A stretch of DNA of 57,974 nt, taken from Candidatus Shapirobacteria bacterium. GTDB lineage: Bacteria > Patescibacteriota > Microgenomatia > UBA12405. This document shows, piece after piece, positions 17,436 to 57,804 of this stretch; position 1 is the first letter of the stretch, and each line of letters opens with the position of its first letter. A program made the translations under genes and the position numbers. The notes beneath the pieces are model-generated. The model made no database searches. It was not told where the DNA came from and saw only the letters and a program-made list of their open reading frames with translations. The DNA is taken from NCBI GenBank assembly GCA_003250375.1, contig QKGR01000026.1:1-57974 (forward strand). Direction: 5' to 3'.

Positions 17436-17659
17436 AGATTGTACTCATAATAAGCTTTAATCGGACCGATAATCAGCTAGCTGTACCAGATTAATAGACA
17501 GAGTCGGCTGTTATCTACATGCTCGTCGACTACCGAATGAAAACCAAGTCGACTGCGCAAGTTCCTCTTAAAACTTATTAAGATTTATTAGTTGAAATTT
17601 TGTTTTATAAACATGACATAATGGTTTGTGTGTATGTTTATCGGCATAATATTGGCTCA

Positions 17660-17744
17660 TTAAACGAAAATTTGCAGTGCTCGCTACCTTCGGGCTCGGC
17701 GTAAGCTGGCTCGCGTTCGCTGTGCGCTGAAATTTTGTTTAATT
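17660..17744. repeat. family C palindromic element (~85 nt; core GTGCTCGCTACCTTCGGGCTCGGCGTAAGCTGGCTCGCGTTCGCTGTGC)
   Basis: The core is identical to 35378-35467 and 36569-36657. Flanked by imperfect inverted AAATTTT arms. Confidence 0.9.
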
Positions 17745-17768
17745 CGCTACTAGGATTATTGGACAATT

Positions 17769-28939: not shown

Positions 28940-28947
28940 GATAGGTA

Positions 28948-28956
28948 ATTTTATCA
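28948..28956 (-). promoter_or_regulatory. extended -10 box TGATAAAAT (minus strand), 8 nt before ATG 28939
   Basis: Read on the reverse complement. Confidence 0.45.
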
Positions 28957-28963
28957 TAAATTG

Positions 28964-30421
28964 TTATTGGCAGATGCCTAGCTGTTGCTGTTGTTCGATG
29001 GTGTAGAAATAGCATTTGAAGAGGTTGTCGTAGGTGACAATGGAATCGTTGCCAGGAGAAGCAGAGATGTTTTTGTCGGAGGTGGCATTGGCTTGGAGAG
29101 AATCGAGTTGATATTTGCTTTGGTCCTCGAGAGTGGTGTAATTGCGAAGCATGGTGTTGAAACTATTGAAAACTTGTTGTTGTTTGGCGGGTTGGACTTG
29201 TTTAATGACAATAGTTTCTGAATGGGTGACAAGAGTGTCTGTAACCCAAATTTGGAGACGATTGACTAAATCTTTGACGTAGGCCATGAAACTGATAGGA
29301 TTTTTTTCGTCGATGGTTTCGTTGTCGGTGGTGTCGGCACAGGGATCGCGGGTGATGAGTTTTTGACCGGAACCGATGCGATGGCTGTAGATATTTTTGG
29401 AATTGTCGCCGTGGTTGGCGCCAAAAGGAATGGCACGTTGGATTATGGTGGGGGTGACACTACTGTCCTCTTCGATGTTGTAGACAATTAATTCTTCGTT
29501 GGTGGAACCAATAGGAGAGAGGGCTAAGTTTTTGTAGATAGTTTTGGCGTAGGAGGTGGTACCAGTACTGCCAATAAGTCCAAGGATACTGTCTGCTGGA
29601 GGACAGCGTTCTTCGCCATACTTACTGACACAACTATTGTAGGTGACATTGATGGCTGATTCGAGAGAATAGGCTTTGGTTTTGGCGGTACATTCGGCAT
29701 AGTAATCGTAAAATATGGGAGAACCTTTGAGTGAGTTGGCGATTTGGGAGAGGAAAATGTTGGTGTTGGATTTGATTTTGGAGGAACAGCGACCGCCCAG
29801 ATCGTAGGCAACAGGCATGTCGTTGCTGACATTGTCGGGGAGGGAAAGATCCTTGTAGAGAGAAAAAATAGAACCGACAAGGTGGCGACCTTTGAGGCAT
29901 TCCTGTTCTTGGAGAGTGGTGGAGCGATCGGACATGTTGAGGCCTTCGAGGAGGTTGTAGTTGGCTAATTGATTGTGAACTTCGTCGTCGGAAGCACAAA
30001 CATCGGGTTTGTTGGTGGTGTAGAGGGCAGTGTCGCGATTTTTGACGGCGAGGGCGGTGTTGGGAGCAACGCCAGTTTGAACTTGTCGAACTAAGTAGGG
30101 GTCGTAGCCGATCACCTCAGTGATGGTTTCACCGGTGTTGGGATCGACGGTGGTGGCTGTTTTTTCTTTAGGTTCGAAAGAATTGGTGATGGTGTAGCTT
30201 CGGCTACAGATGTCTTGAGTGTCGTTTTTGACAGCATTGGCATTGTTGCCAGAAAAAGTTGATTGAAGATCGCCGGCAGGGGCTGGTTGACGCTGAGAAT
30301 ATGGAGTTCTAACGGCTGGATAGACTAAAGTTGAACTTGATTGGGCTAAAATTTGGGGTGGAGTAAGGGAGTATTGAAAAAAGAGAGCGAGAAGTAAAAA
30401 AAGAAGAGGGAGCTTCCTCAT
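28964..30421 (-). CDS. secreted Cys-containing protein of unknown function
   Basis: The internal ATG 30421 gives the signal peptide MRKLPLLFLLLALFFQYSLTPPQILAQ. The track start at 30499 overlaps the upstream gene. Confidence 0.55.
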   Translation of the reverse strand: MRKLPLLFLLLALFFQYSLTPPQILAQSSSTLVYPAVRTPYSQRQPAPAGDLQSTFSGNNANAVKNDTQDICSRSYTITNSFEPKEKTATTVDPNTGETITEVIGYDPYLVRQVQTGVAPNTALAVKNRDTALYTTNKPDVCASDDEVHNQLANYNLLEGLNMSDRSTTLQEQECLKGRHLVGSIFSLYKDLSLPDNVSNDMPVAYDLGGRCSSKIKSNTNIFLSQIANSLKGSPIFYDYYAECTAKTKAYSLESAINVTYNSCVSKYGEERCPPADSILGLIGSTGTTSYAKTIYKNLALSPIGSTNEELIVYNIEEDSSVTPTIIQRAIPFGANHGDNSKNIYSHRIGSGQKLITRDPCADTTDNETIDEKNPISFMAYVKDLVNRLQIWVTDTLVTHSETIVIKQVQPAKQQQVFNSFNTMLRNYTTLEDQSKYQLDSLQANATSDKNISASPGNDSIVTYDNLFKCYFYTIEQQQQLGICQ

Positions 30422-30426
30422 TGTGT

Positions 30427-30810
30427 TTATGGGCCAGGAATAGTGAAATCGATAATGTTGACGCCGGTGAAATTGTTGATGAAGAGAATGACTAGCCAAG
30501 AAATGACGATGCCGACGAGGCCGACGATGGCCATGGTAAGGGTGGATGAAGCGGCGGCAACTTTCTTTTGATCGTTGCTAGAAAAAAGATAATTGAAACC
30601 GCCAATGATAAACATAATGAAAAAAGCGAGACCAGCGGCATAGGAGATAATCTGGAGAAGATTATAGAAAAGACATTCGAGTCCTTGGATGGTGGCGACG
30701 TCGGTGTTGGCGACACAACGGCCGGTCCAAGCGGTTTGGGCAAAGGATGTTTTGGGGAAAGTGAGGGAAATGAGGGATAGGACAGGTAATAATTTAAGGC
30801 GTTTTAACAT
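30427..30810 (-). CDS. VirB2/TrbC-like T4SS mini-pilin paralogue 1
   Basis: Signal peptide, two TMs, and a shared loop motif GGFNYLFSSNDQKKVAAA. Confidence 0.6.
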   Translation of the reverse strand: MLKRLKLLPVLSLISLTFPKTSFAQTAWTGRCVANTDVATIQGLECLFYNLLQIISYAAGLAFFIMFIIGGFNYLFSSNDQKKVAAASSTLTMAIVGLVGIVISWLVILFINNFTGVNIIDFTIPGP

Positions 30811-30815
30811 GGCAT

Positions 30816-30824
30816 ATTATAGCA
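30816..30824 (-). promoter_or_regulatory. extended -10 box TGCTATAAT (minus strand), 5 nt before ATG 30810
   Basis: Read on the reverse complement. Confidence 0.55.
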
Positions 30825-30828
30825 AAAG

Positions 30829-30852
30829 TTGATCAGATAATCAGTTTGTCAG
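30829..30852. repeat. TCAG-type microrepeat (TTGATCAG ATAATCAG TTTGTCAG)
   Basis: Read directly. Confidence 0.8.
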
Positions 30853-30866
30853 ATAAAAGAAATATG

Positions 30867-30912
30867 AAACCCACCCGCCCTACGGGCACCCTCCCTTGAA
30901 AAAGGAGGGTGG
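30867..30912. repeat. family D element (AAACCCACCCGCCCTACGGGCACCCTCCCTTGAAAAAGGAGGGTGG)
   Basis: Second copy at 52575-52619. Confidence 0.85.
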
Positions 30913-30949
30913 ATGTGAAATATAAAAGGGGAAACTGAGAAAAATTGAA

Positions 30950-30987
30950 GAAACAAAAAAATCCCCCAGGTTGCCCTAGGGGATTTT
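30950..30987 (-). terminator. rho-independent terminator after pilin paralogue 2
   Basis: 8-bp stem AAATCCCC/GGGGATTT plus 3 inner pairs, followed on the minus strand by TTTTTTTGTTT. Confidence 0.55.
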
Positions 30988-30999
30988 GATTGACGAAAA

Positions 31000-31383
31000 T
31001 TAGGCTCCAGTTTGAACTGAGGGAATAGTGAGATTGAGAATGTTGATGCCGAAGACGAGTTCGATGAGCTTAACGATGGCCCAAGCAGCAAAGACAATGG
31101 CCAAACCAATGAGAGCATTGGTAATTTGATTGCGAGCAGCTTCGACATTCTTTTGATCGCCACCAGACATGACCCATTTGAGTCCGCCCCAGACGAGCAT
31201 GAAGAAGAAAACTAAAGCAACGATTAACATGACTAAGGAAATGGCTCCAGAGACTAAGCTAGCAGGAGTGATGTTGGTGAGACCTTCAAATTCACCATTG
31301 GGAGAGAGGTTGAGCTCTCTTTGAGCTAGTGCAGGAACTGCTAAGGCTGCCATTTGGACTTTGTGGGACAGTTTTTTGAACAT
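31000..31383 (-). CDS. VirB2/TrbC-like T4SS mini-pilin paralogue 2
   Basis: Two TMs, with loop WGGLKWVMSGGDQKNVEAA. Confidence 0.6.
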   Translation of the reverse strand: MFKKLSHKVQMAALAVPALAQRELNLSPNGEFEGLTNITPASLVSGAISLVMLIVALVFFFMLVWGGLKWVMSGGDQKNVEAARNQITNALIGLAIVFAAWAIVKLIELVFGINILNLTIPSVQTGA

Positions 31384-31443
31384 TTTGTCTATGTGTTGAT
31401 AAATTTTTAATATAACGGTATTTTAACAGGATTATTGTTATTT

Positions 31444-31806
31444 TTAAAGTGTGAGAGAAGGAAGACTAATTTGGAGATTGGCAAGGTTGTCGAGACCGAA
31501 AGCTAAACCAAGTAATTTGAGAATGGCAAAGATGGAGAAAACAACAACAACTCCGAGAACGGCGTTGGTGAGAGAATTGCGACCTTCTTCGAGCTTCTTG
31601 GCATCACCCTGGGAGGTGATAATACGAATACCACCGTTGATGAAATGATAAACGAAGAAAATTACCGCAATAATGATGAACCAATTGAAGAAAGTTTGGA
31701 CTAAATTTTGAGTGGTAGTAATAGGGTCGGGGTTGCTGGTGCAATTGGGATTAAAAAGAGTATTGCAGACTTCGGCGTAAACTGGTTTGACTAGTTGAAA
31801 ATTCAT
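31444..31806 (-). CDS. VirB2/TrbC-like T4SS mini-pilin paralogue 3
   Basis: Two TMs, with loop INGGIRIITSQGDAKKLEEG. Confidence 0.6.
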   Translation of the reverse strand: MNFQLVKPVYAEVCNTLFNPNCTSNPDPITTTQNLVQTFFNWFIIIAVIFFVYHFINGGIRIITSQGDAKKLEEGRNSLTNAVLGVVVVFSIFAILKLLGLAFGLDNLANLQISLPSLTL

Positions 31807-31812
31807 GTTGAT

Positions 31813-32172
31813 TTAGAGACCTAAGCTGGTGAAGAATCCGTTGAGATCGAGGATGCTTTGAATGCCAGCAAGTCGGCCGAGTAAATTGGTAAGTGTGACA
31901 GCAACAACAACGACGACAATACCGAGAATGCCGTTGGTAATTCTGGTTTTGGCAGCATCGAGACGTTTGGGATCGCCTTGGGAAGAAATGAATTCATAGC
32001 CAGCAAAGATAATTTGGATGGCAAAAAAGATGAAAGCTACGACAGAAAGAACACCAATGACAACACTAATTATTCGTTCCATGGTGACGACTGGAGTGCC
32101 GGTAGGGTCGACACCTGGACCAGTGAGTTGGTAGGTGGCGGCTTGAGCGTAAAGTGTATGAATGAGACTCAT
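31813..32172 (-). CDS. VirB2/TrbC-like T4SS mini-pilin paralogue 4
   Basis: The in-frame ATG 32172 (MSLIHTLYAQAA..) avoids overlap with paralogue 5. Loop FAGYEFISSQGDPKRLDAA. Confidence 0.6.
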   Translation of the reverse strand: MSLIHTLYAQAATYQLTGPGVDPTGTPVVTMERIISVVIGVLSVVAFIFFAIQIIFAGYEFISSQGDPKRLDAAKTRITNGILGIVVVVVAVTLTNLLGRLAGIQSILDLNGFFTSLGL

Positions 32173-32174
32173 AG

Positions 32175-32501
32175 TTAGTTGATAGTAGGATTGAGAATAT
32201 TTAAACCTGTAAGTCGACCGACAACGGCAGCAATGGTGAAGGCAGAGGCGATAATGACTAAACCAAGAATAGCCTGCCAAATTTTTGTCCAGGCTTGTTC
32301 GGTCTTTTTGACGTCGCCGTTGGCGGAAATGTACATGTAGCCAGCGAGGACAAACTGAACGACCATGACAATGCCAGCGATGACAGCGGCAAATTTGAGA
32401 ACATTGCTAAGAAAGAGAAATAAGCCCTGGCCTTGAGTACCAGCAGTGGTGTACTTGCTTAATTGTGTTGGTGCTTGGATGTTGCCGAATATGCCAGCCA
32501 T
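32175..32501 (-). CDS. VirB2/TrbC-like T4SS mini-pilin paralogue 5
   Basis: Two TMs, with loop LAGYMYISANGDVKKTEQA. Confidence 0.6.
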   Translation of the reverse strand: MAGIFGNIQAPTQLSKYTTAGTQGQGLFLFLSNVLKFAAVIAGIVMVVQFVLAGYMYISANGDVKKTEQAWTKIWQAILGLVIIASAFTIAAVVGRLTGLNILNPTIN

Positions 32502-32544
32502 AAATTCAATTTTTAATTTTCAATTTATAATTTTAAATTAGTTT

Positions 32545-32877
32545 CTAAATACCGGAATTGAGAATTCTCATGCCGGTGATGACTTCGACTATCTGAATAA
32601 TAAAGAAAGCTAAGAAAACAACAGCGAAGCCAATTAGAGCGTCGGTAATGATGGCTTGTGCCTGTGCGGACTTTTTGGGGTCGCCACTACCTGCGGAAAT
32701 TATATAGTTAACTCCGCCAAAAATCAAAAGGACAACCAAAAGAACACTAATGACAGCAAAGGAGTTGCGGAGGATGGAGGAGACGAGGACGGAGGCATCG
32801 GAATAGGCGCCGGAGAGATTGACACCATTGGCAATGGGGGTGTCGGAACCGATGTTGACTGCGAGCAGCGATTTCAT
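32545..32877 (-). CDS. VirB2/TrbC-like T4SS mini-pilin paralogue 6
   Basis: Two TMs, with loop FGGVNYIISAGSGDPKKSAQA. TAGAAT (32885-32890, minus strand) lies 7 nt before the ATG. Confidence 0.6.
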   Translation of the reverse strand: MKSLLAVNIGSDTPIANGVNLSGAYSDASVLVSSILRNSFAVISVLLVVLLIFGGVNYIISAGSGDPKKSAQAQAIITDALIGFAVVFLAFFIIQIVEVITGMRILNSGI

Positions 32878-33015: not shown

Positions 33016-33957
33016 ATGAGAAAATATTTAATAGTACTGATGGTAAGTTTGATGTTTGTGGTGGGCGGAAAAAGAGAGGTTTTGGGGGTGGTGGAGCCTG
33101 TGGCTTCCGAAAGTGCGGTTGAAGCAACGATGGCAGCAACAATTGAGCCAACAGCAACTGTGGTTCCAGTGAAAGAAAATATTACTGAACCTGGTGAGAA
33201 AAATGTGAGTTATAGATTGGAGTCGGTACTAGATAGCCAGGAAGTGGGAAAATGGAATGGGTTGAATTCTTTGAAGTGGTTAGTGAGACTAGCGGTGAGC
33301 AGAGGGGTGGCAGCTAATACTATAGTATTGTTGCTTTTGTTGCCAATGGTGGCAACGATTGTGTCGGTGCTGCATTATGTGTTTGGGGTGACTGGATACG
33401 GAATTTTTACCCCAACAATGGTGGCAATTACTTTTTTGGCAACGGGAATTTTTGGAGGATTGGCTTTGTTTGCAATGATTTTGGGAATTTCGATTGTGGC
33501 TAATATGTTTTTGAAGAAGCTGAAATTGCATTTTTGGCCAGCCAGGTCGATGGGTCTGGTATTTATTTCAATAGGAGCTTTCTTGTTGATGATTTTGTCG
33601 TCTTATTTTGAGCTAATTAATTTGTCGAAGGTGTCGATTTTCCCGGTTCTCCTGATGATTTTGTTGGCAGAAGATTTTGTGAGAACCCAGCTAGTGAAGA
33701 GTAAAAGTGAGGCAAAAAAGCTAACGATTGGGACCCTAATTTTGTCGATGGTGGGTGCTTTGGGGATGTCGGTGAGAGTGGTACAAGAATCGGTGATACT
33801 GCACCCAGAGATTGTGATTGTGGCAGTACTGGTAATTAATTTGTGGGTAGGAAGCTACAGTGGGATAAGATTGACTGAAATTGGTAGATTTAAAGAAGCA
33901 GTTAGAGTGAAGAACAAGAAGCAAGATTCAAGATTCAGGATTCAGGATAAAAAATAA
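33016..33957 (+). CDS. 7-TM membrane protein (7TM_transglut-like, without transglutaminase domain; tentative)
   Basis: 313 aa: signal-like N-terminus, a ~90-aa exported part, then 7 hydrophobic helices. First gene of the ATP-grasp cluster. Confidence 0.45.
   Translation: MRKYLIVLMVSLMFVVGGKREVLGVVEPVASESAVEATMAATIEPTATVVPVKENITEPGEKNVSYRLESVLDSQEVGKWNGLNSLKWLVRLAVSRGVAANTIVLLLLLPMVATIVSVLHYVFGVTGYGIFTPTMVAITFLATGIFGGLALFAMILGISIVANMFLKKLKLHFWPARSMGLVFISIGAFLLMILSSYFELINLSKVSIFPVLLMILLAEDFVRTQLVKSKSEAKKLTIGTLILSMVGALGMSVRVVQESVILHPEIVIVAVLVINLWVGSYSGIRLTEIGRFKEAVRVKNKKQDSRFRIQDKK
33925..33947. repeat. 7-nt microrepeat inside CDS 3' end (GATTCAA GATTCAG GATTCAG GA)
   Basis: Translated as DSRFRIQD. 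Confidence 0.75.
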
Positions 33958-33975
33958 GATACAAAATATAGAATT

Positions 33976-35361
33976 ATGCTAAAGAATTTAATAAAGACAA
34001 TTAAGAAGGTGGGGGAACTAAAACAGTATAGGAAGTTCTTAACGAAGAATGAAAGAAACAAAATGTACTTGAGGAAGAATTCGGCGAGCGGAAGATCGTT
34101 GGCGGATTCTAAATTTAAGACTAAATTGAAATTGGCTAAGGCTGGAGTAGGAGTACCAAAGCTATTAGCAAGATTTAGAACAGAGGAAGATGTAGAAAAA
34201 TTTGAGTGGAATAAGCTTGAGGGAAATTTCGTGATTAAACCGGTGTCGGGATATGGTGGTGATGGAATTATTATTATTAGGAAAAGAGGTAAGTGGGCTG
34301 GAGATTGGGTGAAGATGGATGGGGAGACGGTGAGTACTCAGGATATACAGGCACATTGTATGGAGATTCTGGCGGGAAAATATAGCTTATATGGAATGCC
34401 GGATAGCGTGCTAGTGGAAGAAAGAATTAAGATTCATCCGATGTTTTTGTCGATTACGAAGGCGGGGACGCCTGATATTAGGGTGATTGTATATAATAGT
34501 GTGCCAGTGATGGCAATGTTTAGAATTCCGACGGAAAAATCGGGAGGTAAGGCTAATTTGCAGCAGGGAGCTTATGGACTGGGAATTGATTTGGCAACTG
34601 GAATTACGACTTTTGGGACAGAGGGTAAGAGTGAGACGGTGACAAAGATATATGATTTTGGAAAAAAGAAAATGCGAAAGGTGAATGGAATTAAGATTCC
34701 GTTTTGGAAAGAAGTGTTGGAGACGGCAATTAAGTGCCAGAAAGCGATTGGGGGGTTGGGATTTTTGGGAGTAGATATTGTACTTGATAAGGATAAGGGT
34801 CCGGTAGTGCTAGAAGTGAATGCGAGACCAGGCTTATCGATTCAAATTTGTAATAAGGCTGGGTTGAAAGCAAGAATGGAAAAGGTGGAAGATATGGAGG
34901 TGAGATCGGTGGAACATGGAGTGACCTTGGCTAAATATTTGTTTGGAGAGAGTTTTTTTGAAAAGGTGGAAGCTAAAGAAAAGACTCAAGTGGTGAAGCC
35001 ACTAGAGCAAATTAAAATAAAACTAGGTCCCGACTTCGCCAAGGCTTCGACGGGTAAAAAAGGGAAACATTGGGTGAAGGAAATTAGGGCCAAGGTGGAT
35101 ACTGGGGCATTTAGGAGTTCGATTGACAAGAGTTTTGCGGAATCTTTGGGATTGCTTGATGAGAGTAAAATTCTTTATTATAGACATTATAGATCGAGTT
35201 TGGGGAAGCATAGGGATAGGCCGGTGGTCGGTTTGACTTTTTGGTTGAAGGGGAAGAAGATTGTGACGGCAGTGAATGTGGCTGATAGACATAAACTGAG
35301 GACGAAGTTTTTGTTGGGAAGAAAAGATTTGGAAGGATTTTTAGTTAGTGCTAAAAAATAA
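33976..35361 (+). CDS. ATP-grasp ligase fused to C-terminal retropepsin-like (RimB / 'ATP-dependent zinc protease' PF05618-type) domain
   Basis: ATP-grasp core (FVIKPVSGYGGDGIIII.., LVEERI, VLEVNARPGL). C-terminal IRAKVDTGAFRSSID...VADRHKLRTKFLLGRKDLEGFLV matches the retropepsin-like family pattern. Confidence 0.6.
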   Translation: MLKNLIKTIKKVGELKQYRKFLTKNERNKMYLRKNSASGRSLADSKFKTKLKLAKAGVGVPKLLARFRTEEDVEKFEWNKLEGNFVIKPVSGYGGDGIIIIRKRGKWAGDWVKMDGETVSTQDIQAHCMEILAGKYSLYGMPDSVLVEERIKIHPMFLSITKAGTPDIRVIVYNSVPVMAMFRIPTEKSGGKANLQQGAYGLGIDLATGITTFGTEGKSETVTKIYDFGKKKMRKVNGIKIPFWKEVLETAIKCQKAIGGLGFLGVDIVLDKDKGPVVLEVNARPGLSIQICNKAGLKARMEKVEDMEVRSVEHGVTLAKYLFGESFFEKVEAKEKTQVVKPLEQIKIKLGPDFAKASTGKKGKHWVKEIRAKVDTGAFRSSIDKSFAESLGLLDESKILYYRHYRSSLGKHRDRPVVGLTFWLKGKKIVTAVNVADRHKLRTKFLLGRKDLEGFLVSAKK

Positions 35362-35377
35362 TATGAAAATACTGCAA

Positions 35378-35467
35378 CTTGATAATAAATTTTTCGTACT
35401 CGCTACCTTCGGGCTCGGCGTAAGCTGGCTCGCGTTCGCTGCGTGCGAAAAATTAATTATCTTCGTT
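35378..35467. repeat. family C palindromic element
   Basis: Same core as 17660-17744. Arms GATAATAAATTTTT / AAAAATTAATTATC. Confidence 0.9.
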
Positions 35468-35499
35468 GCTTTAGTTTGAATAAAAATTAACTTAATAAT

Positions 35500-36558
35500 A
35501 TGAAAGATAAAGCTAAAATCGGACTGTTCTTTGGAGGTAAGATTTCCCAACATTTACTATTGCTTAAAAAGGCGGCAAAGAGATTGGGGGTGAGGTTGGA
35601 TTTGCTCTCTTATAATAGAGTATGTTTTGATTCTGAGAATCAAAAAGTGATGATACGAGGGTCGGTGGGAGAAGAATCGAGATTGGGCTATGAGGGATCG
35701 ATGAAGGAAGTGGGAGAGTATGATGTGTTGTTTTTTAGAACTACAGGAAAACATTGGGAAGAAGTGGATTTGGTGATTAGGGCTGTGGAGGAAAACAAAA
35801 ATAAAGACGTGGTGGTGATTGATCCTTTGGTGAGATTTGGAAAGCCATCGTATGCCTGCAAGGCTTGGCAAATGTTGAAGTTGAAAGAGGCTGGAATTGA
35901 GGTGCCGAAGACTGTTTATGGATCCTTGTGGTATTTGTATGAGTTTATGAAAATCAGTTCAGATTCTCGTCAACGAATTTTGTCCGTGCTCACGCCCTTC
36001 GGGGATAAACCCACTCGGATGATTGCGCGCGGAAAAATTGTTGACTCCGAATCTATTGCAAACATGCATTTTCCGGTGATCTTGAAGGGAAGTGGAGGTG
36101 ATAGGGGGACTCGAGTGTTTAAAGCTAATAATTTGGAAGAATTGGGTTCTTTGGTGAGAGAGCTAAGAATGAGTGAAATTAAGGAAGGAAGAAGGTATAT
36201 GTTGCAGGAATATATTGAAAATGATGGTGATTATAGAGTGTTGGTGTTGGGAGATAGAGTGCTTGGAGTGATGAAAAGATCGAGCCAAAGCAAGGCTGAA
36301 TTTAGAAATAATTTTTCGGCGGGAGGGAAAGTGGAAGTGGCTGATTTGCCTGAGAATATTAAAAAGATGGCAGTGGAGGCGGCCAGAGTATGCGGATTGG
36401 CGATTGCTGGTGTGGATGTGGCCTTTAGGAATTTTGATATGAGTAAGCCAGTGGTGTGGGAAGTGAACAAAGGGCCGCAATTTAAAGGATTTATGGAAGC
36501 GACTGGAATTGATGTACCTGAAGAAATAGTTAAATATTTAGTTAGTTTAAAAAAATAG
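35500..36558 (+). CDS. RimK-type ATP-grasp ligase (alpha-L-glutamate-ligase-like), with in-frame palindromic insertion
   Basis: FPVILKGSGGDRGTRVFK, MLQEYIE..DYRVLVLGDRVLGVMKR, FRNNFSAGG, AGVDV..VWEVNKGPQF. Confidence 0.7.
   Translation: MKDKAKIGLFFGGKISQHLLLLKKAAKRLGVRLDLLSYNRVCFDSENQKVMIRGSVGEESRLGYEGSMKEVGEYDVLFFRTTGKHWEEVDLVIRAVEENKNKDVVVIDPLVRFGKPSYACKAWQMLKLKEAGIEVPKTVYGSLWYLYEFMKISSDSRQRILSVLTPFGDKPTRMIARGKIVDSESIANMHFPVILKGSGGDRGTRVFKANNLEELGSLVRELRMSEIKEGRRYMLQEYIENDGDYRVLVLGDRVLGVMKRSSQSKAEFRNNFSAGGKVEVADLPENIKKMAVEAARVCGLAIAGVDVAFRNFDMSKPVVWEVNKGPQFKGFMEATGIDVPEEIVKYLVSLKK
35961..36054. repeat. family C' palindromic element inside CDS (core GTGCTCACGCCCTTCGGGGATAAACCCACTCGGATGATTGCGCGCGG)
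   Basis: Near-identical intergenic copy at 57714-57804. Translated as SDSRQRILSVLTPFGDKPTRMIARGKIVDSES. Confidence 0.85.
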
Positions 36559-36568
36559 ATGATAATAG

Positions 36569-36657
36569 ACTCGATACTAAATTTTTAGTGCTCGCTACCT
36601 TCGGGCTCGGCGTAAGCTGGCTCGCGTTCGCTGTGCTCTAAAAATTTAGTATCTTCG
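36569..36657. repeat. family C palindromic element
   Basis: Arms GATACTAAATTTTTA / TAAAAATTTAGTATC. Core identical to the other copies. Confidence 0.9.
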
Positions 36658-36683
36658 TCTAGATATATATTTAAATAAATAGT

Positions 36684-37667
36684 ATGAAAAGAAAAATATT
36701 AGTCTTAACAATGTCGCAATCGCAAAGTAATTTTGAGGTGACAAGATTGGTGGAAGAAGCGGCAAAACATGGGATTGAGGTGGAGAGAGCTTTGTACAGA
36801 GATTTAACTTTTGATTTGACCAGTGATAAGGAAAAAGTGTTTGTGAAAGGGAAAGAAATTACTCCAGAAAACACAATGGCAGTGTGGTTTAGGGTGGCAG
36901 GGACAATTAGTGGAAAATATACTGAGGGAAGGAATTTGCTGATTCGAGTATTGAGATCGAGAGGAATTTTTTGCGCCAACCACAAAGGATATTTGGGCTG
37001 GACGAGAATGGGGAAGATTGCTCAACACGCAGTGTTTGTGGAGAATCAGATTCCAGTAGTGCCAACCAGAATTTTTTATCAAATTAGCCAGGTGCTAGAT
37101 TTGAAAAACAAGTCGAAAGAGAAATTTGGAGATTGGGATTTTCCAATTATTGCCAAGCACGAGAGAGGCTACCAGGGGAAGTCGGTACGAAAATTTAAGA
37201 GCTGGAAGAGAGTGGAAAGATGGCTAAATAAAATAGATGAGATTAATTTGGGAATGTTTTTGTGGCAAAAATGTTTGCCGACCAGATGGGATTTGAGAAT
37301 AATTGTGCTGGGTGGAAAAGCGATTGGAGCCATGAAAAGATCGGCAGTAGGAAAAGAATTTAGAAGTAATTTTTCACTAGGTGGGAATGTGGAAAAGTGG
37401 GAATTGTCCGAAGATGATAAAGTTTTGGCGGAAAAAGTGGCTAAGGTGTGCGGGCTTGATTATTGTGGTGTGGATATTATGAAGGACGATGAAGGTAATA
37501 GTTATATTCTGGAGGTAAACCGACAGTGTCAATATCAGGGATTTGAGAAAGCGACGGGGATTAATGTGGCTGAGAAAGTAGTGGAAATGCTTTCAGAAAT
37601 GACTTATGATGGTAGTAGTGAAAAGGAGTCGATGGATACAATTTTTGGCAATATTAGCTGTTGTTAG
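36684..37667 (+). CDS. RimK-type ATP-grasp ligase paralogue
   Basis: FPIIAKHERGYQGKSVRKF, DLRIIVLGGKAIGAMKR, FRSNFSLGG, CGVDIM..ILEVNRQCQYQGF. Confidence 0.7.
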   Translation: MKRKILVLTMSQSQSNFEVTRLVEEAAKHGIEVERALYRDLTFDLTSDKEKVFVKGKEITPENTMAVWFRVAGTISGKYTEGRNLLIRVLRSRGIFCANHKGYLGWTRMGKIAQHAVFVENQIPVVPTRIFYQISQVLDLKNKSKEKFGDWDFPIIAKHERGYQGKSVRKFKSWKRVERWLNKIDEINLGMFLWQKCLPTRWDLRIIVLGGKAIGAMKRSAVGKEFRSNFSLGGNVEKWELSEDDKVLAEKVAKVCGLDYCGVDIMKDDEGNSYILEVNRQCQYQGFEKATGINVAEKVVEMLSEMTYDGSSEKESMDTIFGNISCC

Positions 37668-38352
37668 CATTGGAACGTACAAAAGCGTAGTTCCTTCTGA
37701 GGCAGCACTAACCACACCTTATTGTGGAAAATGTGGTGATACTTGTGTGGATACACCAGAATCTTTTGCGGCATGTCCGGCGACAACAAGAGATGATTTT
37801 GAATGTTTGATGGTGGATGGGGTTTGCGAGACGGTGACCATTGGTGATCCTGAAGTGCCGACATTGACGCCAACAGTGGCGGCTCCAACACCATCCGATA
37901 GAGATCAATCTTGTATGGCATGTGGAAGCGAGTGCAAGTGGGTGGTACCAGGAATAGATAGTTGTTTGCCAACTATTGGCAATTTTGTATGTATGGAGCA
38001 GGGGGCAAACTGTGTGGTGAAAGAAGTGTCGTACCAGATTACACCGACGTCGGGTGCACCAACAAGCGATTTAGATGTGTGTGTGGTTTGTGGAACAAAA
38101 GAGTATGGAGATGCAAATTGTGATGGATCGGTGGAATTGGATGATTTTGTAGTATGGAGAGCTGATTATATAAATGGTATGAATAGTAGTTGTACAAATG
38201 GTGACTTTGATGGGGATGGGAGAGTGGAACTGTCTGACTTTGTAATATGGAGGAGTGGGTATATTAATGGACTACCTAAGAAGACATTATCGGGCGAAAT
38301 TGAGAATCCTGGTCCAATTAAACCAACAATTACTGGTTTTGAAGAATATTAA
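37606..38352 (+). CDS. secreted Cys-rich protein with C-terminal paired dockerin-like repeats
   Basis: Signal peptide MMVVVKRSRWIQFLAILAVVSIGTYKSVVPSEA. 2.5 six-Cys modules. DANCDGSVELDDFVVWRADY and NGDFDGDGRVELSDFVIWRSGY. The start overlaps the upstream gene by 62 nt and is uncertain. Confidence 0.55.
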   Translation: MMVVVKRSRWIQFLAILAVVSIGTYKSVVPSEAALTTPYCGKCGDTCVDTPESFAACPATTRDDFECLMVDGVCETVTIGDPEVPTLTPTVAAPTPSDRDQSCMACGSECKWVVPGIDSCLPTIGNFVCMEQGANCVVKEVSYQITPTSGAPTSDLDVCVVCGTKEYGDANCDGSVELDDFVVWRADYINGMNSSCTNGDFDGDGRVELSDFVIWRSGYINGLPKKTLSGEIENPGPIKPTITGFEEY

Positions 38353-38376: not shown

Positions 38377-39981
38377 ATGAAAATAGTAGGTAAAATTTTA
38401 ACTTTGGTAATAGTGTTGGCAGCTTTGGGAGCAGGAGTGTACTTGGTGATGAAAAACCAGGAAACCAGAAGAGGAGCGGCAGCAATTACACCATCGTTGA
38501 TATTTCAATCGCCTAAGAATGAAGGCTTGGCGGTGGGAGAGCAATTTACTATTAATTTGGCGGTAGATACTAAATCGAGTTCGATGAAAGTGTCGGCTTT
38601 TGAGGTTCATTTGGCTTTTGATAACACTAAGATAAGAATTGATGAGGCGACGCCAAGTTGGTATAGTTGGGATTCAGCCAGTTTGTATAGTAGACAAACA
38701 AGTTTCTTTAAACACCTGGAAGGGGATGATTTGTCGGATTTGAGCAAACCCGCTGATTTGAAAGGAAGATTTGAAATTAATAATGATACGGGAGTGCTGA
38801 CTTTGAGTGGTATTTCGACGAGAGGAAATGATGATTTGTGTTCGGGAGTGGTGCAAACTTATAAAATTAAGGGAACGATTTTGGCGGAGGGACAAAGTAA
38901 ATTTACGCTAACTGGAACATTAAATAATGCAGCTATTACTGAAATTAGTTCGAGTGGAGCAGGACAACCTGAGACGATTGCAATCGACCCAGCAGTAGAG
39001 TTCTTCGTGAGTACTGGTAGTAGTAATGTGAGTCCGGAAGAATCGAGCCCGACACCAACTCCAAGCGGAGTGATTGATGGAAATGATATGACGTCAACAC
39101 CAGGTGATGAGCCAGAAGCAACAGCAACACCAACTAGTCCTGCAGCAACAGCGACTCCAACAAAGCCTGCAGCAACAGCGACTCCAACTAGTGGGATTAG
39201 TGATAGTTGTAGTAGTGATAATGATTGTGGAAACAATGAGAGCTGTGGAAATGATGGAACTTGTAGTGCTTTGAGCTGCCAAGACAATAGCGGGGTAGAT
39301 ATGACTTGTAAGAATTTGGTGACTGCGGCACACGAATGTAGTGTGGTGACTAATAAAAATGATGGGGTGAGTTGTGGAAGCGGAAAGGTGTGTACAGCGG
39401 GTGAGTGCATTAGTAGCGGTAGTGTGGGAATACTGAACTTTAAGATGGCTTTTGCCGGAGTGAGTGCTAAATCGAAATGTGCCACTGATTGGAAAGTAAA
39501 AGCGATTGTGCGGGATGCTAATGGAACAATGAAGACTTATGAGGATGTGGTACTGAGTTTGGATGAAAGTTCGGCGGCGAAGAATATATATAAGGGTAGT
39601 ATTGCCTTGGAAGGAATTAGCTCACAAAGTGGTTTGTCGGTGTTCTTGAAGGGTCCTAAGCATATTCAAGTGAAATATGGTGAGGATAGTCAATCGGAAA
39701 TGTATAACCGAGAAGGTGGAAACTTGAGTGTGACGACCGATATTAATACAAGCAAGTGGTATGACTTTAGTAACTATGCCATGGGTCCTGGAGATGTGAA
39801 TCAGGATGGAGTAGTAAACGCTTTGGATTTCTCGATTGTGAAGTCGAAATCCTTGTCGCATGAGGTAGTAAGCGAGGGAGTTTACTTAGAAGAAGACTTG
39901 GATGGAAACTGTATTATGAATACAAATGATGTGTTGCTTTTGAGAGAAACTTTGAAAGATAAACAAGATCAAATTTATTAA
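38377..39981 (+). CDS. membrane-anchored surface protein: cohesin-like N-domain (tentative), Thr/Pro linkers, Cys-rich module, C-terminal dockerin
   Basis: N-terminal TM. LAVGEQFTINLAVDT..VSAFEVHLAFDNTKIRI is cohesin-like. ATATPTSPAATATPTKPAATATPTSG is a linker. GDVNQDGVVNALDFSIV...DLDGNCIMNTNDVLLL is a dockerin pair. Confidence 0.55.
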   Translation: MKIVGKILTLVIVLAALGAGVYLVMKNQETRRGAAAITPSLIFQSPKNEGLAVGEQFTINLAVDTKSSSMKVSAFEVHLAFDNTKIRIDEATPSWYSWDSASLYSRQTSFFKHLEGDDLSDLSKPADLKGRFEINNDTGVLTLSGISTRGNDDLCSGVVQTYKIKGTILAEGQSKFTLTGTLNNAAITEISSSGAGQPETIAIDPAVEFFVSTGSSNVSPEESSPTPTPSGVIDGNDMTSTPGDEPEATATPTSPAATATPTKPAATATPTSGISDSCSSDNDCGNNESCGNDGTCSALSCQDNSGVDMTCKNLVTAAHECSVVTNKNDGVSCGSGKVCTAGECISSGSVGILNFKMAFAGVSAKSKCATDWKVKAIVRDANGTMKTYEDVVLSLDESSAAKNIYKGSIALEGISSQSGLSVFLKGPKHIQVKYGEDSQSEMYNREGGNLSVTTDINTSKWYDFSNYAMGPGDVNQDGVVNALDFSIVKSKSLSHEVVSEGVYLEEDLDGNCIMNTNDVLLLRETLKDKQDQIY

Positions 39982-43610: not shown

Positions 43611-43684
43611 GGGCCTGTGGCTTAGTTGGTTATAGCGCTTCATTTGCAATGAAGAGGTCGGGAGTTCGAATCTCCCCAGGTCCA
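43611..43684 (+). tRNA. tRNA-Ala (anticodon UGC), CCA not encoded
   Basis: Acceptor GGGCCTG/CAGGTCC with the G3:U70 Ala identity pair. Anticodon loop TTTGCAA. T-arm GGGAGTTCGAATCTCCC. Confidence 0.9.
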
Positions 43685-43690
43685 CAAAAA

Positions 43691-43720
43691 AGATGTCAGA
43701 TCTCAGATGTCAGATCTCAG
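43691..43720. repeat. direct microrepeat AGATGTCAGATCTC x2 (+AG)
   Basis: Read directly, right after tRNA-Ala. Confidence 0.85.
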
Positions 43721-43861
43721 AAATGAGACGATAAATGCGACTGAATCTTGTCCGCCTAGTGCGGATCAAACGTTAACAATCTGTTTTTTTGGTTTACTTT
43801 CAATTTCTTGGCAACTTAATTGAGTTGCCTAACCCGCCTCATCGGCGGGTAAATTTTATTG

Positions 43862-46839
<2,978 letters not shown>

Positions 46840-46950
46840 CAATAAAATCTGGCTCTTTGGACGTCTTTTCTTGACGATCAAGGAGCTGGAGTAGGTAACT
46901 CAATTAAGAGGCCAAGATAATTAGTAGTAAACCAAATAGTTTGATTTTTG

Positions 46951-47072
46951 AATTCCGGTCGCCTGAGCGAGATGGTACCACCTCTTCCCATTTCGAACAG
47001 AGTCGTGAAACGTTTTAGCGCCGACAATAGTTTTCCCGCAAGGGATCTTGAAGATAGGTCGCGGCCGGAATT
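46951..47072 (+). rRNA. rrf: 5S ribosomal RNA
   Basis: Terminal helix TTCCGGTCGC/GCGGCCGGAA. The internal CCACCTCTTCCCATTTCGAACAGAGTCGTGAAACG resembles the universal 5S loop region. Confidence 0.85.
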
Positions 47073-57713: not shown

Positions 57714-57804
57714 TTCGCCTCATGACGAAATTTTGCCGTGCTCACGCCCTTCGGGGATAAACCCCTCGGATGATTGCGCGCGGAAAATTTGTCATTTCGG
57801 CGAA
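57714..57804. repeat. family C' palindromic element (intergenic copy)
   Basis: TTCGCCTCATGACGAAATTTTGCCGTGCTCACGCCCTTCGGGGATAAACCCCTCGGATGATTGCGCGCGGAAAATTTGTCATTTCGGCGAA. Confidence 0.9.

What the first reader, a model, noticed from the sequence alone, without database searches (positions are those of the whole stretch)
33016..37667. 7TM + three ATP-grasp ligases, one fused to a RimB-like retropepsin: an expanded, uncharacterised peptide/amino-acid ligase module
Seen: there are four co-directional genes.
- (1) A 7-helix membrane protein.
- (2) An ATP-grasp ligase whose C-terminus is a retropepsin-like domain (AKVDTGAFRSS...LLGRKDLEGFLV).
- (3) and (4) Two RimK-type ATP-grasp paralogues.

Established: RimK adds poly-alpha-glutamate tails to ribosomal protein S6, and in Pseudomonas the retropepsin-like RimB trims them. 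Comparative genomics (the Iyer/Aravind amidoligase survey) predicted neighbourhoods combining 7TM-(inactive transglutaminase), ATP-grasp and this protease as functionally unknown peptide-ligase systems. This locus differs in several ways. Ligase and protease are fused in one polypeptide. The 7TM protein lacks the transglutaminase part. Three ligases are present. The genes are punctuated by identical palindromic elements. No substrate gene is evident. Hypotheses: stepwise building and trimming of an amino-acid tail on a protein target, or synthesis and export of a small poly-amino-acid via the 7TM protein. The next genes encode secreted Cys-rich/dockerin proteins.
Basis: partly seen in the sequence, partly recalled or inferred. 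Interest (0 to 1): 0.7.

Follow-up and report, generated by a model that had tools for sequence, protein, structure and literature searches.

The report
CPR ligase–protease operon (Rlo/Rim-like)
This is a conserved four-gene operon of tiny "candidate phyla radiation" bacteria in which a membrane protein works with three amino-acid-adding enzymes, one of them welded to a protease that probably trims what they build; it is a new variant of the recently named but biochemically unsolved Rlo/Rim systems, not a new kind of system.

Summary
Window 33016-37667 (+) encodes four genes:
- an RloB-type 7TM protein without the transglutaminase ectodomain;
- an RloC-type ATP-grasp ligase fused C-terminally to an intact RimB/RloA-type retropepsin domain (DTGA; K373/R415/R438);
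- two divergent RimK-family ligases.

The 7TM-then-ligase pair occurs in almost all 80 related loci, including Pseudomonas/Legionella rloBC. The ligase::retropepsin fusion is general in Patescibacteria. One or two extra ATP-grasp genes sit directly downstream in 29 of 39 Patescibacteria-type loci, against one 0.85 kb downstream in 40 proteobacterial loci.

Other family members fuse the ligase to a MATCAP carboxypeptidase (retropepsin Asp then lost), to a second ligase, to YdjC, or to the 7TM protein itself.

Best reading: membrane-docked ligases build an acidic, probably Glu-rich, chain that the built-in peptidase trims. The acceptor is unknown.

The kind is known: Iyer/Aravind prediction, rloABC 2025, RimBK hybrid 2025. 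This is a new variant.

The "identical palindromes" are Rickettsia-palindromic-element-like hairpin repeats. There are five copies in the window, and one is inserted in frame inside gene 3. The dockerin and pilin neighbours are not conserved beyond close relatives.

The parts
33016..33957 (+). g1: RloB-type 7TM membrane protein (313 aa) lacking the transglutaminase ectodomain. It has a signal anchor, a ~65-aa acidic/Thr/Pro linker, 7 TM spans, then the conserved cytoplasmic motif G-x-R-L-x-E-x-x-R-F and a basic tail.
   Evidence: PF14402 1.3e-24. NCBIfam RloB matched only at positions 312-506 of 508. Hydropathy. Conserved P110, G124, P133, G148, E219, P264, G279, G283, R285, E288, R291 and F292 across 72 CPR and proteobacterial homologues. 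C-terminal motif.
33976..35361 (+). g2: cytoplasmic RloC-type ATP-grasp ligase fused to a C-terminal retropepsin domain (461 aa). No hydrophobic segment and no signal peptide.
   Evidence: The 120 best homologues are 70-85% identical and 440-504 aa. The ligase part is 41-46% identical to Pseudomonas/Legionella RloC.
34054..34890 (+). ATP-grasp ligase domain of g2 (residues 27-305). Mg/ATP motif GVD...LEVN is intact.
   Evidence: PF14397 207 bits; TIGR02291 272 bits, below its cut-off of 314. AF2 pLDDT 70-93 over this part, and Foldseek top hits are ArgX/LysX/RimK/Ddl/cyanophycin synthetase. Invariant columns in A1.
35071..35349 (+). Retropepsin (RimB/RloA, PF05618) domain of g2 (residues ~366-458). 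The catalytic Asp375 codon is at 35098-35100 (KVDTGAF).
   Evidence: PF05618 28.1 bits. Profile against PDB: 9g59 5e-15, 9g58 6e-12, 2pma 2e-6. DTGA, K373, R415, R438 and LLGRKDL are invariant in 24 homologues. They correspond to the RloA polyGlu contacts K46/R114/R137 (PMC12239564). Translation check.
35377..35466 (+). Hairpin repeat element, copy in the g2|g3 spacer.
   Evidence: -40.7 kcal/mol, z -6.2; covariance model, 81 bits.
35500..36558 (+). g3: RimK-family ATP-grasp ligase, accessory type A (352 aa).
   Evidence: PF08443 2.6e-28; TIGR00768 129.7 bits against a cut-off of 143.4. RimK structures hit at 1e-16. Positional orthologues are found in Shapirobacteria-type loci, L022, L018, L025 and L034.
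35967..36050 (+). Hairpin repeat element inserted in frame inside g3. It is translated as the ~28-aa insert SDSRQRILSVLTPFGDKPTRMIARGKIVDSE.
   Evidence: Covariance-model hit of 56 bits, E 3e-11. The insert is absent from L001/L005/L007/L014 orthologues, and a related insert is present in L008-L010. It folds at -35.9 kcal/mol.
36569..36658 (+). Hairpin repeat element, copy in the g3|g4 spacer.
   Evidence: (-41.8 kcal/mol, z -6.3).
36684..37667 (+). g4: RimK-family ATP-grasp ligase, accessory type B (327 aa), with a RimK_N-like pre-ATP-grasp domain.
   Evidence: PF08443 2.6e-28; PF18030 25.3 bits; TIGR00768 136.6 bits against 143.4. RimK structures hit at 5e-15. 35% identical to g3 over the catalytic half. 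Positional orthologue in L022.

Best explanation
The region is a single operon. It is the Patescibacteria (CPR; closest relatives are labelled Candidatus Shapirobacteria) version of the proteobacterial rloABC / rimBK 'amino-acid ligase plus retropepsin' systems.

Shown by sequence:
- The RloB-type 7TM protein has its C-terminus in the cytoplasm.
- The RloC-type ATP-grasp ligase carries, on the same cytoplasmic polypeptide, a catalytically intact RimB/RloA-type aspartic endopeptidase domain.
- That domain keeps the basic residues that bind polyglutamate in RloA.
- Two further, mutually divergent RimK-family ligases have intact ATP/Mg motifs.

Inferred mechanism:
- The ligases work at the cytoplasmic face of the 7TM protein. 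They may dock on its conserved RLxExxRF tail, and in some relatives the 7TM protein and the ligase are one polypeptide.
- They add amino acids, using ATP, to a carboxylate acceptor, producing an alpha-linked, acidic, probably glutamate-rich chain.
- The three ligases divide the work, for example into initiation, elongation or different residues.
- The fused retropepsin, acting as a dimer, cuts the chain. Its length or turnover is therefore set by the balance between ligase and peptidase, as RimB does for RimK.
- The 7TM protein scaffolds the enzymes and may pass the product, or a signal, across the membrane.

Not identified: the acceptor (a protein C-terminus, a free peptide or an envelope precursor).
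For: Domain identities and intact catalytic motifs:
- Domain searches and alignments.
- RloA polyGlu-contact residues K46/R114/R137 (PMC12239564) align with the invariant K373/R415/R438.

Gene order and distribution:
- The 7TM-then-ligase adjacency is seen in nearly all of the 80 loci from the genome scan. This includes 40 proteobacterial rloBC loci.
- The fusion is present across Shapiro-, Moran-, Levy-, Kaiser- and Peregrinibacteria-type loci.
- Accessory ATP-grasp genes sit directly downstream in 29 of 39 CPR-type loci, with two of them in 11 loci. In the 40 proteobacterial loci only one (L084) has such a gene, 0.85 kb downstream.
- The a/b positional orthology of g3/g4 extends to the distant locus L022.

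Rosetta-stone fusions in the same ligase family:
- 7TM+ligase (P0240).
- Transglutaminase+7TM+ligase (P0260).
- Ligase+retropepsin+MATCAP carboxypeptidase (P0130, P0141).
- Ligase+retropepsin+second ATP-grasp (P0167).
- In the three genome loci with a MATCAP fusion, the retropepsin catalytic Asp is replaced. This looks like displacement by another peptidase.

Established knowledge used:
- RimK makes poly-alpha-Glu, and RimB trims it and stimulates RimK (PMC11957791).
- Loss of rloB or rloC rescues the triple rloA mutant (PMC12239564).
Against: - No acceptor or substrate gene was found. There is no room for a precursor ORF in relatives with 5-bp gene spacers. There are no poly-acidic runs in the window, and only one acidic C-terminus, far away. 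rpsF is not in the window.
- g2 scores below the TIGR02291 cut-off, and g3/g4 score below the TIGR00768 cut-off. Amino-acid specificity therefore cannot be transferred with confidence.
- In Pseudomonas the protease is periplasmic, while here it is cytoplasmic. The two systems may not act on the same kind of product.
- The 7TM C-terminus is basic, not acidic, so it is not an obvious RimK-type acceptor.
- The AF2 model of the protease domain is only of moderate confidence (pLDDT 55-77).
Confidence: 0.6

Rival explanations
1. Envelope-precursor modification. The ligases add amino acids to a sugar- or lipid-linked carboxylate, such as a peptidoglycan or glycopolymer precursor, at the inner face of the membrane. 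The 7TM protein flips or presents it, and the peptidase edits it.
For: - Pfam names the g2 ligase family 'sugar-transfer associated'.
- One family member is fused to a YdjC-like sugar deacetylase (P0132).
- Moranbacteria-type loci have GT4, GNAT and class A PBP genes just downstream.
- Pseudomonas rlo mutants have defects in cell shape, beta-lactam sensitivity and hypo-osmotic tolerance, and the Vibrio operon is under VxrAB (PMC12239564).
Against: - The peptidase domain keeps the residues that bind polyGlu peptides.
- The alternative fused peptidase, MATCAP, is a protein C-terminal carboxypeptidase family.
- Glycan genes are not adjacent in the window or in the Shapirobacteria clade. GH18 and VTT genes follow at variable distance.
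Confidence: 0.2
2. g3 and g4 are ordinary RimK enzymes that polyglutamylate ribosomal protein S6. They merely lie next to an rloBC-like pair, so the 'three-ligase module' is not one functional unit.
For: Their best solved relatives are RimK of E. coli and Pseudomonas. The FR(S/N)N..GG, GVD and EVN motifs are shared, and TIGR00768 scores are just under threshold.
Against: - There are two old paralogues (35% identical) rather than one rimK.
- Scores against the S6-ligase equivalog are 61-65 bits against a cut-off of 331.
- Accessory ATP-grasp genes follow the fusion gene directly in many deep CPR lineages, but not the unfused proteobacterial rloC.
- Some relatives fuse a second ATP-grasp to the same polypeptide (P0167).
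- The accessory ligase types change between lineages.
Confidence: 0.12
3. The genes are adjacent only through shared ancestry of close relatives and have no functional coupling.
For: The divergent pilin array and the GH18/VTT neighbours are also syntenic within the Shapirobacteria clade without any evident link.
Against: - The core order persists in lineages whose g2 is only 35-50% identical and whose other neighbours are entirely different. Those neighbours are ruvB/yebC/ruvC upstream and mnmA or a PBP downstream.
- Domain fusions join the components.
Confidence: 0.03

Closest known systems
rloABC operon of Pseudomonas aeruginosa (Lormand et al., mBio 2025, PMC12239564)
   Same: - The same two protein families are adjacent in the same order: a 7TM (PF14402) protein followed by an RloC-type ATP-grasp (PF14397/TIGR02291-like, 41-46% identical).
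- A PF05618 retropepsin is associated, with the conserved DTGA motif and polyGlu-contact residues.
   Different: - Here the protease has no signal peptide. It is fused to the C-terminus of the cytoplasmic ligase instead of being a secreted protein encoded upstream.
- The 7TM protein lacks the inactive transglutaminase ectodomain.
- Two extra RimK-family ligases belong to the operon.
- The host is a CPR bacterium without an outer membrane.
RimK-RimB and the RimBK hybrid (Little et al., JBC 2025, PMC11957791)
   Same: A cytoplasmic ATP-grasp ligase is paired, or fused, with a retropepsin that cleaves poly-alpha-glutamate. g3 and g4 are RimK-family by sequence.
   Different: - In RimBK the protease is N-terminal to a true RimK. 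Here it is C-terminal to an RloC-type ligase.
- No 7TM partner exists in rim loci.
- The acceptor S6 is not shown here.
Iyer/Abhiman/Burroughs/Aravind 2009 amidoligase survey: predicted 7TM-(inactive transglutaminase) + ATP-grasp + aspartyl protease neighbourhoods. Recalled from memory and from the Pfam family descriptions; the paper could not be read here.
   Same: The same three families are predicted to form a peptide-ligase system of unknown product.
   Different: The CPR-wide fused form, the accessory ligases and the MATCAP variants could not be checked against that paper.
Eukaryotic tubulin tail cycle: TTL/TTLL ATP-grasp ligases versus MATCAP/CCP carboxypeptidases. This is an analogy only.
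   Same: ATP-grasp ligases add Tyr or Glu to an acidic C-terminal tail and dedicated peptidases remove them. MATCAP-family (PF08014) domains are fused to this very ligase family in some CPR lineages.
   Different: No tubulin-like acceptor is known here. The window's own protein has a retropepsin, not MATCAP.
Rickettsia palindromic elements and REP/MITE-like repeats (review PMC10969869), for the hairpin elements only
   Same: Short dispersed palindromic repeats lie in intergenic spacers, and one is inserted in frame in a coding gene and translated.
   Different: These are ~85-90 nt. Their GC-rich core is identical or near-identical within a genome, while the A/T-rich arms are copy-specific. No transposase or target-site duplications were identified.

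Membership tests
rloABC system | RloC-type cytoplasmic ATP-grasp ligase (PF14397 / TIGR02291) | tested here: met
   PF14397 scores 207 bits against a cut-off of 31.4. The ligase part is 41-46% identical to Pseudomonas/Legionella RloC. TIGR02291 scores 272 bits, which is below its cut-off of 314.
rloABC system | [quoted passage not shown] | tested here: not met
   The 7TM part is present (PF14402 1.3e-24). There is no transglutaminase match. Only positions 312-506 of the 508-position RloB model align.
rloABC system | RloA: secreted, signal-peptide-bearing stand-alone retropepsin | tested here: not met
   The domain is present, but it is fused to the C-terminus of a protein with no hydrophobic segment. 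It is therefore predicted to be cytoplasmic.
rloABC system | 7TM gene immediately upstream of the ligase gene, on the same strand | tested here: met
   The gap in the window is 18 bp. The same order is found in nearly all 80 loci.
rloABC system | Role in hypo-osmotic tolerance, with loss of rloB/rloC epistatic to loss of the proteases | not testable with these tools
   This is a genetic phenotype (PMC12239564).
RimK / RimBK | RimK family membership by the NCBIfam subfamily model TIGR00768 (cut-off 143.4) or the S6-ligase equivalog PRK10446 (cut-off 331) | tested here: not met
   g3 scores 129.7 and g4 136.6 bits on TIGR00768. They score 65 and 61 bits on PRK10446. The Pfam RimK domain is met at 99 bits each.
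RimK / RimBK | Protease domain N-terminal to RimK in the hybrid | tested here: not met
   The protease is C-terminal to an RloC-type ligase. The RimBK description is in PMC11957791.
RimK / RimBK | Acceptor is ribosomal protein S6 with a C-terminal Glu | not testable with these tools
   rpsF is not in the window. The rest of the genome could not be fetched.
PF05618 RimB/RloA-type retropepsin | Catalytic D-T-G-A motif, the family fold and basic substrate-channel residues | tested here: met
   - PF05618 scores 28.1 bits against a cut-off of 27.
- The domain profile hits solved family members at 5e-15 and 6e-12.
- D375-T-G-A, K373, R415 and R438 are invariant.
- The flap insert is about 25 aa shorter than in RloA.
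ATP-grasp ligases (all three) | ATP-binding Lys and the Mg-binding D...E-x-N motifs | tested here: met
   The Mg motifs are GVD...LEVN in g2, GVD...WEVN in g3 and GVD...LEVN in g4. The Lys lies in FPVILK (g3) and FPIIAK (g4), aligned to RimK PLVVK.
Anti-phage defence systems (PADLOC) | Match to any defence-system protein model | tested here: not met
   None of the four proteins has a hit at E <= 0.01.

The most novel reading that the evidence does not exclude
The module could be a prokaryotic 'tail code'. Several dedicated ATP-grasp ligases would write a hetero-amino-acid (Glu-rich) C-terminal tail on a membrane or envelope protein of CPR bacteria at the 7TM scaffold. Built-in erasers would remove it: a retropepsin endopeptidase, or in sister lineages a MATCAP carboxypeptidase. 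This would be mechanistically parallel to, and possibly evolutionarily connected with, the eukaryotic TTL/TTLL-MATCAP tubulin tail cycle.
Probability: 0.15. Interest if true: 0.8.

Novelty: new variant of a known kind. Interest (0 to 1): 0.55.

Why it matters
The biochemical product and acceptor of the Rlo system are still unknown, even in Pseudomonas, where the system affects antibiotic tolerance, biofilm formation and cell shape.

The CPR variants are natural experiments that constrain the mechanism:
- The protease can act in cis with the ligase in the cytoplasm.
- The 7TM protein and the ligase can be one polypeptide.
- The retropepsin can be replaced by a C-terminal carboxypeptidase.
- Additional ligases are recruited.

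Together these point to a chain that is built and trimmed on a carboxyl terminus.

The operon is also one of the more strongly conserved gene sets in these reduced genomes (70-85% identity across the clade). That suggests an important, unstudied function in CPR cell biology. It also offers small, soluble fusion enzymes suitable for in-vitro work.

Tried and rejected
**Dead ends**
- Foldseek of the whole g2 model against the PDB returned only ATP-grasp folds. The protease domain was swamped, so profile-versus-PDB sequence search was used instead.
- The Iyer 2009 paper could not be read.
- The cluster look-up gave no names for the four proteins.

**Searches for the hairpin core**
- Rfam gave no hit at the gathering threshold or at E <= 1.
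- There was no exact match to the 43-nt or 23-nt core in metagenome contigs (two scans), in viral contigs, or in the 86 loci.

**Searches for a substrate**
- Small ORFs in the spacers are only artefacts of the hairpins.
- Acidic C-termini or acidic runs in the window gave one distant ORF.
- An E. coli S6 tblastn found nothing.
- The 7TM C-terminus as an acidic acceptor was rejected, because it is basic in nearly all homologues.

**Links considered and rejected**
- Functional link to the divergent T4SS_pilin array: it is syntenic only within the Shapirobacteria clade.
- Link to the dockerin/Cys-rich genes: they are not syntenic in relatives.
- Defence system: no PADLOC hits.
- The promoter/terminator consensus scan was not above shuffled expectation.

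Full report
**1. What is in the sequence**

Window 33016-37667 holds four co-directional ORFs on the + strand.

- **g1 (313 aa)** matches Pfam 7TM_transglut (PF14402, 1.3e-24, residues 102-294).
  - In NCBIfam it matches only the C-terminal 7TM part (positions 312-506 of 508) of 'osmotic stress tolerance membrane protein RloB'.
  - Hydropathy shows an N-terminal signal anchor, a ~65-aa acidic/Thr/Pro-rich linker, seven hydrophobic spans and a basic C-terminal tail.
  - This means an outside N-terminus and a cytoplasmic C-terminus. No transglutaminase domain is detectable.
- **g2 (461 aa)** has no hydrophobic segment.
  - Residues 27-305 are an ATPgrasp_ST domain (PF14397, 4e-61). TIGR02291 'alpha-L-glutamate ligase-like' scores 272 bits, below its cut-off of 314.
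  - Residues ~366-458 match PF05618 (RimB-like/'Zn_protease') at 28.1 bits against a cut-off of 27.
  - Because that score is marginal, I built a profile of the C-terminal domain from 16 diverse loci. It hits the solved family members 9g59 (5e-15), 9g58 (6e-12; identical in the aligned stretch except one residue to the rloA product upstream of rloB in Pseudomonas locus L075) and 2pma (2e-6).
  - The catalytic KVDTGAF is at 35092-35112.
- **g3 (352 aa) and g4 (327 aa)** are RimK-domain proteins (PF08443, 2.6e-28 each).
  - Their closest solved relatives are RimK of Pseudomonas and E. coli. The ATP-Lys, FR(S/N)N..GG, GVD and EVN motifs are conserved.
  - They are only 35% identical to each other.
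  - They fall just below the TIGR00768 cut-off and far below the S6-ligase equivalog cut-off.

**2. Conservation**

- The 120 best database relatives of g2 are all 70-85% identical and 440-504 aa. Where named, they come from Candidatus Shapirobacteria, Woesebacteria or the Patescibacteria group.
- DTGA, K373, R415, R438 and LLGRKDL are invariant in a 24-sequence alignment.
- Three relatives looked up by exact sequence all show the same layout:
  - a minus-strand array of 5-7 genes with Pfam T4SS_pilin hits (one or two further small genes in the run have none);
  - then, on the plus strand, 7TM, ligase::retropepsin, RimK, RimK;
  - then GH18 and VTT genes at variable distance.
- A scan of one genome per GTDB species returned 80 loci. 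I analysed them with tblastn and a home-built ATP-grasp HMM.
- The 7TM-then-ligase adjacency holds in nearly all loci. This includes 40 proteobacterial loci (Pseudomonas, Legionella, Luteimonas, Thioalkalivibrio and others). There the ligase is 41-46% identical but ends at about residue 325, and the 7TM protein is ~505-520 aa. These are rloBC.
- The fusion to a retropepsin domain is present in all CPR-type loci with a ~430-510-aa ligase, including the Moranbacteria type, where tblastn missed it but AKIDTGADSTSI is present.
- Many of these MAGs carry implausible labels such as 'uncultured Gammaproteobacteria'. I rely on architecture and identity, not on those labels.

**3. The extra ligases belong to the module**

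- One or two additional ATP-grasp genes lie directly downstream of the fusion gene in 29 of 39 CPR-type loci, with two of them in 11 loci. In the 40 proteobacterial loci only one (L084) has such a gene, 0.85 kb downstream. Pfam confirmed this for L018, L022, L023 and L034.
- In these distant lineages g2 is only 39-49% identical and the other neighbours are unrelated: ruvB/yebC/ruvC upstream, and mnmA, GT4, GNAT or a class A PBP downstream. Inherited synteny alone therefore does not explain the association.
- Reciprocal best hits show that the first and second accessory genes of L022 correspond to g3 and g4 respectively.
- The first accessory gene of L018/L025/L034 groups next with the g3 type. 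Their second gene is a third type, shared with the single accessory gene of L023/L024/L036/L040.
- So the core is constant and the accessory ligases vary by lineage.

**4. Fusions that tie the parts together**

A search of 1.84 billion 50%-identity representatives with g2 gave 378 proteins at E <= 1e-30. The best 150 break down by length as follows:

| Class | Count |
|---|---|
| Two-domain forms like g2 | 32 |
| 740-930 aa forms (24 of them aligned through the retropepsin domain) | 45 |
| Ligase-only forms | 28 |

Pfam on ten of them shows the following architectures:
- ligase+retropepsin+MATCAP (PF08014) carboxypeptidase (P0130, P0141), and ligase+MATCAP (P0146, P0152);
- ligase+retropepsin+second ATP-grasp (P0167);
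- ligase+retropepsin+YdjC (P0132);
- 7TM+ligase (P0240);
- transglutaminase+7TM+ligase (P0260);
- ligase+TPR (P0246).

In the three genome loci with MATCAP fusions (L043, L045, L060), the intervening retropepsin-like segment has lost the catalytic Asp (INT instead of DTG) but keeps the LGRKDL-like end.

These Rosetta-stone fusions argue for three things:
- The 7TM protein and the ligase act together at the cytoplasmic face.
- A peptidase is an obligatory partner of the ligase.
- Different peptidases can fill that role.

**5. Mechanism**

Published work supplies the reference points:
- RimB is a retropepsin-like endopeptidase that removes the Glu tails and stimulates RimK.
- A RimB-RimK hybrid (protease N-terminal) exists in Desulfotalea, Flavobacteriales and Rhodobacterales (PMC11957791).
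- In P. aeruginosa, three secreted RloA retropepsins cleave stretches of 8 or more Glu. Their loss is lethal under hypo-osmotic stress and is rescued by deleting rloB or rloC. The substrate is unknown (PMC12239564).

The RloA residues that contact polyGlu (K46, R114, R137) correspond to the invariant K373, R415 and R438 of g2. The flap region is about 25 residues shorter but is rich in Arg/Lys/His.

My best reading is therefore this:
- The three ligases work on the cytoplasmic side of the 7TM protein.
- They build an acidic, probably Glu-rich, alpha-linked chain on a carboxylate acceptor.
- The fused retropepsin trims it.

Shown are the domain identities, intact active sites, topology, conserved order and fusions. 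Inferred are the amino acid added, the division of labour among the ligases, and the role of the 7TM protein as scaffold, exporter or sensor.

**6. The acceptor was not found**
- Relatives with 5-bp spacers leave no room for a precursor gene.
- The spacer ORFs in the window are products of the hairpin repeats.
- The window has no poly-acidic run and only one distant acidic C-terminus.
- S6 is not in the window.
- The 7TM C-terminus is basic.

**7. Rivals**

*Envelope-precursor modification* is a serious alternative.
- For it: the YdjC fusion, the GT4/GNAT/PBP neighbours in Moranbacteria, the Pfam family name and the Pseudomonas cell-wall-like phenotypes.
- Against it: the peptide-type peptidases.

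*Plain RimK-S6 modification by g3/g4* is weakened by several points:
- there are two divergent paralogues;
- the equivalog scores are low;
- the accessory types are lineage-specific;
- they sit strictly beside the fused ligase.

*A defence-system reading* has no support.

**8. The 'palindromic elements'**

- The two spacers carry ~90-nt elements that are 89% identical. Each has an identical 43-nt GC-rich core and copy-specific, mutually complementary A/T-rich arms plus an outer helix. They fold at -41 to -42 kcal/mol, z about -6.
- A covariance model built from window and relative copies (7 of 15 pairs covary) finds five copies in the window, all on the + strand: 17657-17747, 35377-35466, 35967-36050, 36569-36658 and 57719-57801.
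- The third copy lies inside g3, in frame. It is translated as a ~28-aa insert that is absent from the L001/L005/L007/L014 orthologues. L008-L010 have a related insert at the same site, with homologous flanks but a different core. This explains why g3 is longer than its orthologues.
- Relatives also have hairpins of the same build in the g2|g3 and/or g3|g4 spacers, with two apex types. Others, such as L001 and L010, have no spacer at all.
- The elements thus resemble REP/MITE-like repeats, and especially Rickettsia palindromic elements, which insert in frame into genes (PMC10969869).
- They are not a defining component of the module. They may affect processing or stability of the operon mRNA, but this is untested.
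- No Rfam family matches. The core was not found by exact search in the metagenome or viral collections.

**9. Novelty and verdict**

- The kind of system is known. It was predicted in 2009 and named and genetically studied in 2025, and a ligase-protease hybrid was described in 2025.
- New, as far as the held literature shows, is the CPR-wide architecture:
  - a 7TM protein without transglutaminase;
  - an RloC-type ligase with a C-terminal cytoplasmic retropepsin;
  - one or two accessory RimK-family ligases;
  - sister forms with MATCAP.
- I rate it a new variant of a known kind. Interest is moderate, because these natural fusions give testable constraints on a system whose chemistry is unsolved.

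Noticed in passing
window 17657-17747, 35377-35466, 35967-36050, 36569-36658, 57719-57801 (all + strand): A family of ~85-90-nt hairpin repeats with a GC-rich apex (identical 43-nt core in three copies) and copy-specific complementary A/T-rich arms. One copy (35967-36050) is inserted in frame in g3 and translated as a ~28-aa loop, as Rickettsia palindromic elements are. Related hairpins sit in the same spacers in relatives (L003, L005, L007, L008, L009, L014). There is no Rfam match.
   Followed up: partly
whole window (1-57974): There is extreme strand asymmetry. GC skew on the + strand is +0.19 to +0.54 in every 2-kb bin, including over minus-strand genes (pilin array +0.23, 511-aa gene +0.38) and 23S rRNA (+0.18). 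Related Shapirobacteria-type loci show +0.17 to +0.36, and other CPR lineages -0.15 to +0.26. The G-poor minus strand yields many long spurious ORFs.
   Followed up: partly
window 30427-32877 (- strand): A tandem array of six small two-TM paralogues, divergent from g1. Only the first (32545-32877) was scanned here and matches T4SS_pilin, PF18895. The array is followed by large secreted proteins without Pfam hits (28964-30499, 27320-28957). The corresponding arrays in relatives carry PF18895 hits and are syntenic only within the Shapirobacteria clade. No link to the ligase module could be shown.
   Followed up: partly
L043 5947-8319, L045 8968-11340, L060 8965-11352; proteins P0130, P0141, P0146, P0152: In some CPR lineages the same ligase is fused to a MATCAP-family (PF08014) carboxypeptidase. 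In the three genome loci the retropepsin-like middle segment has lost its catalytic Asp (INT for DTG). This looks like peptidase displacement and recalls the eukaryotic TTL/MATCAP pair.
   Followed up: partly
proteins P0240, P0260, P0167, P0132, P0246 (representatives of the g2 family): Further architectures are 7TM+ligase, transglutaminase+7TM+ligase, ligase+retropepsin+second ATP-grasp, ligase+retropepsin+YdjC, and ligase+TPR.
   Followed up: partly
L044 3267-4805, L060 7423-8961; L023-L041 7TM genes: The ectodomain of the 7TM protein is modular. It is transglutaminase-like in Proteobacteria (~510 aa) and carries a PKD-like WDFGDGN motif in Peregrini-/Peribacteria-type loci (512 aa). It is a short linker in the Shapirobacteria type (~290-313 aa) and almost absent in the Moranbacteria type (~218 aa). 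The cytoplasmic GxRLxExxRF motif after TM7 is conserved in all.
   Followed up: partly
window 43611-47070: There is a tRNA, 23S and 5S rRNA cluster, but no 16S rRNA gene anywhere in the 58-kb window. The rRNA operon therefore appears to be split.
   Followed up: no
loci L007, L009, L011, L012, L014, L016-L022, L026-L028, L033, L036, L041, L042: These MAG records are titled 'uncultured Gammaproteobacteria/Pseudomonadales/Bdellovibrionales'. Yet they carry CPR-type gene content and proteins up to about 75% identical to the window's Shapirobacteria-type g2. The taxonomic labels of these third-party assemblies look unreliable.
   Followed up: no
window 37606-38352 and 38377-39981: Two secreted Cys-rich proteins lie downstream of g4; the first ORF overlaps the g4 end by 62 nt. 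The dockerin match is above the Pfam threshold only in the second (28.8 bits against 22.9). These genes are absent from the corresponding position in relatives.
   Followed up: partly
window 17436-17656: A ~220-nt intergenic stretch upstream of one hairpin copy has no ORF and no Rfam match. It was not examined further.
   Followed up: no
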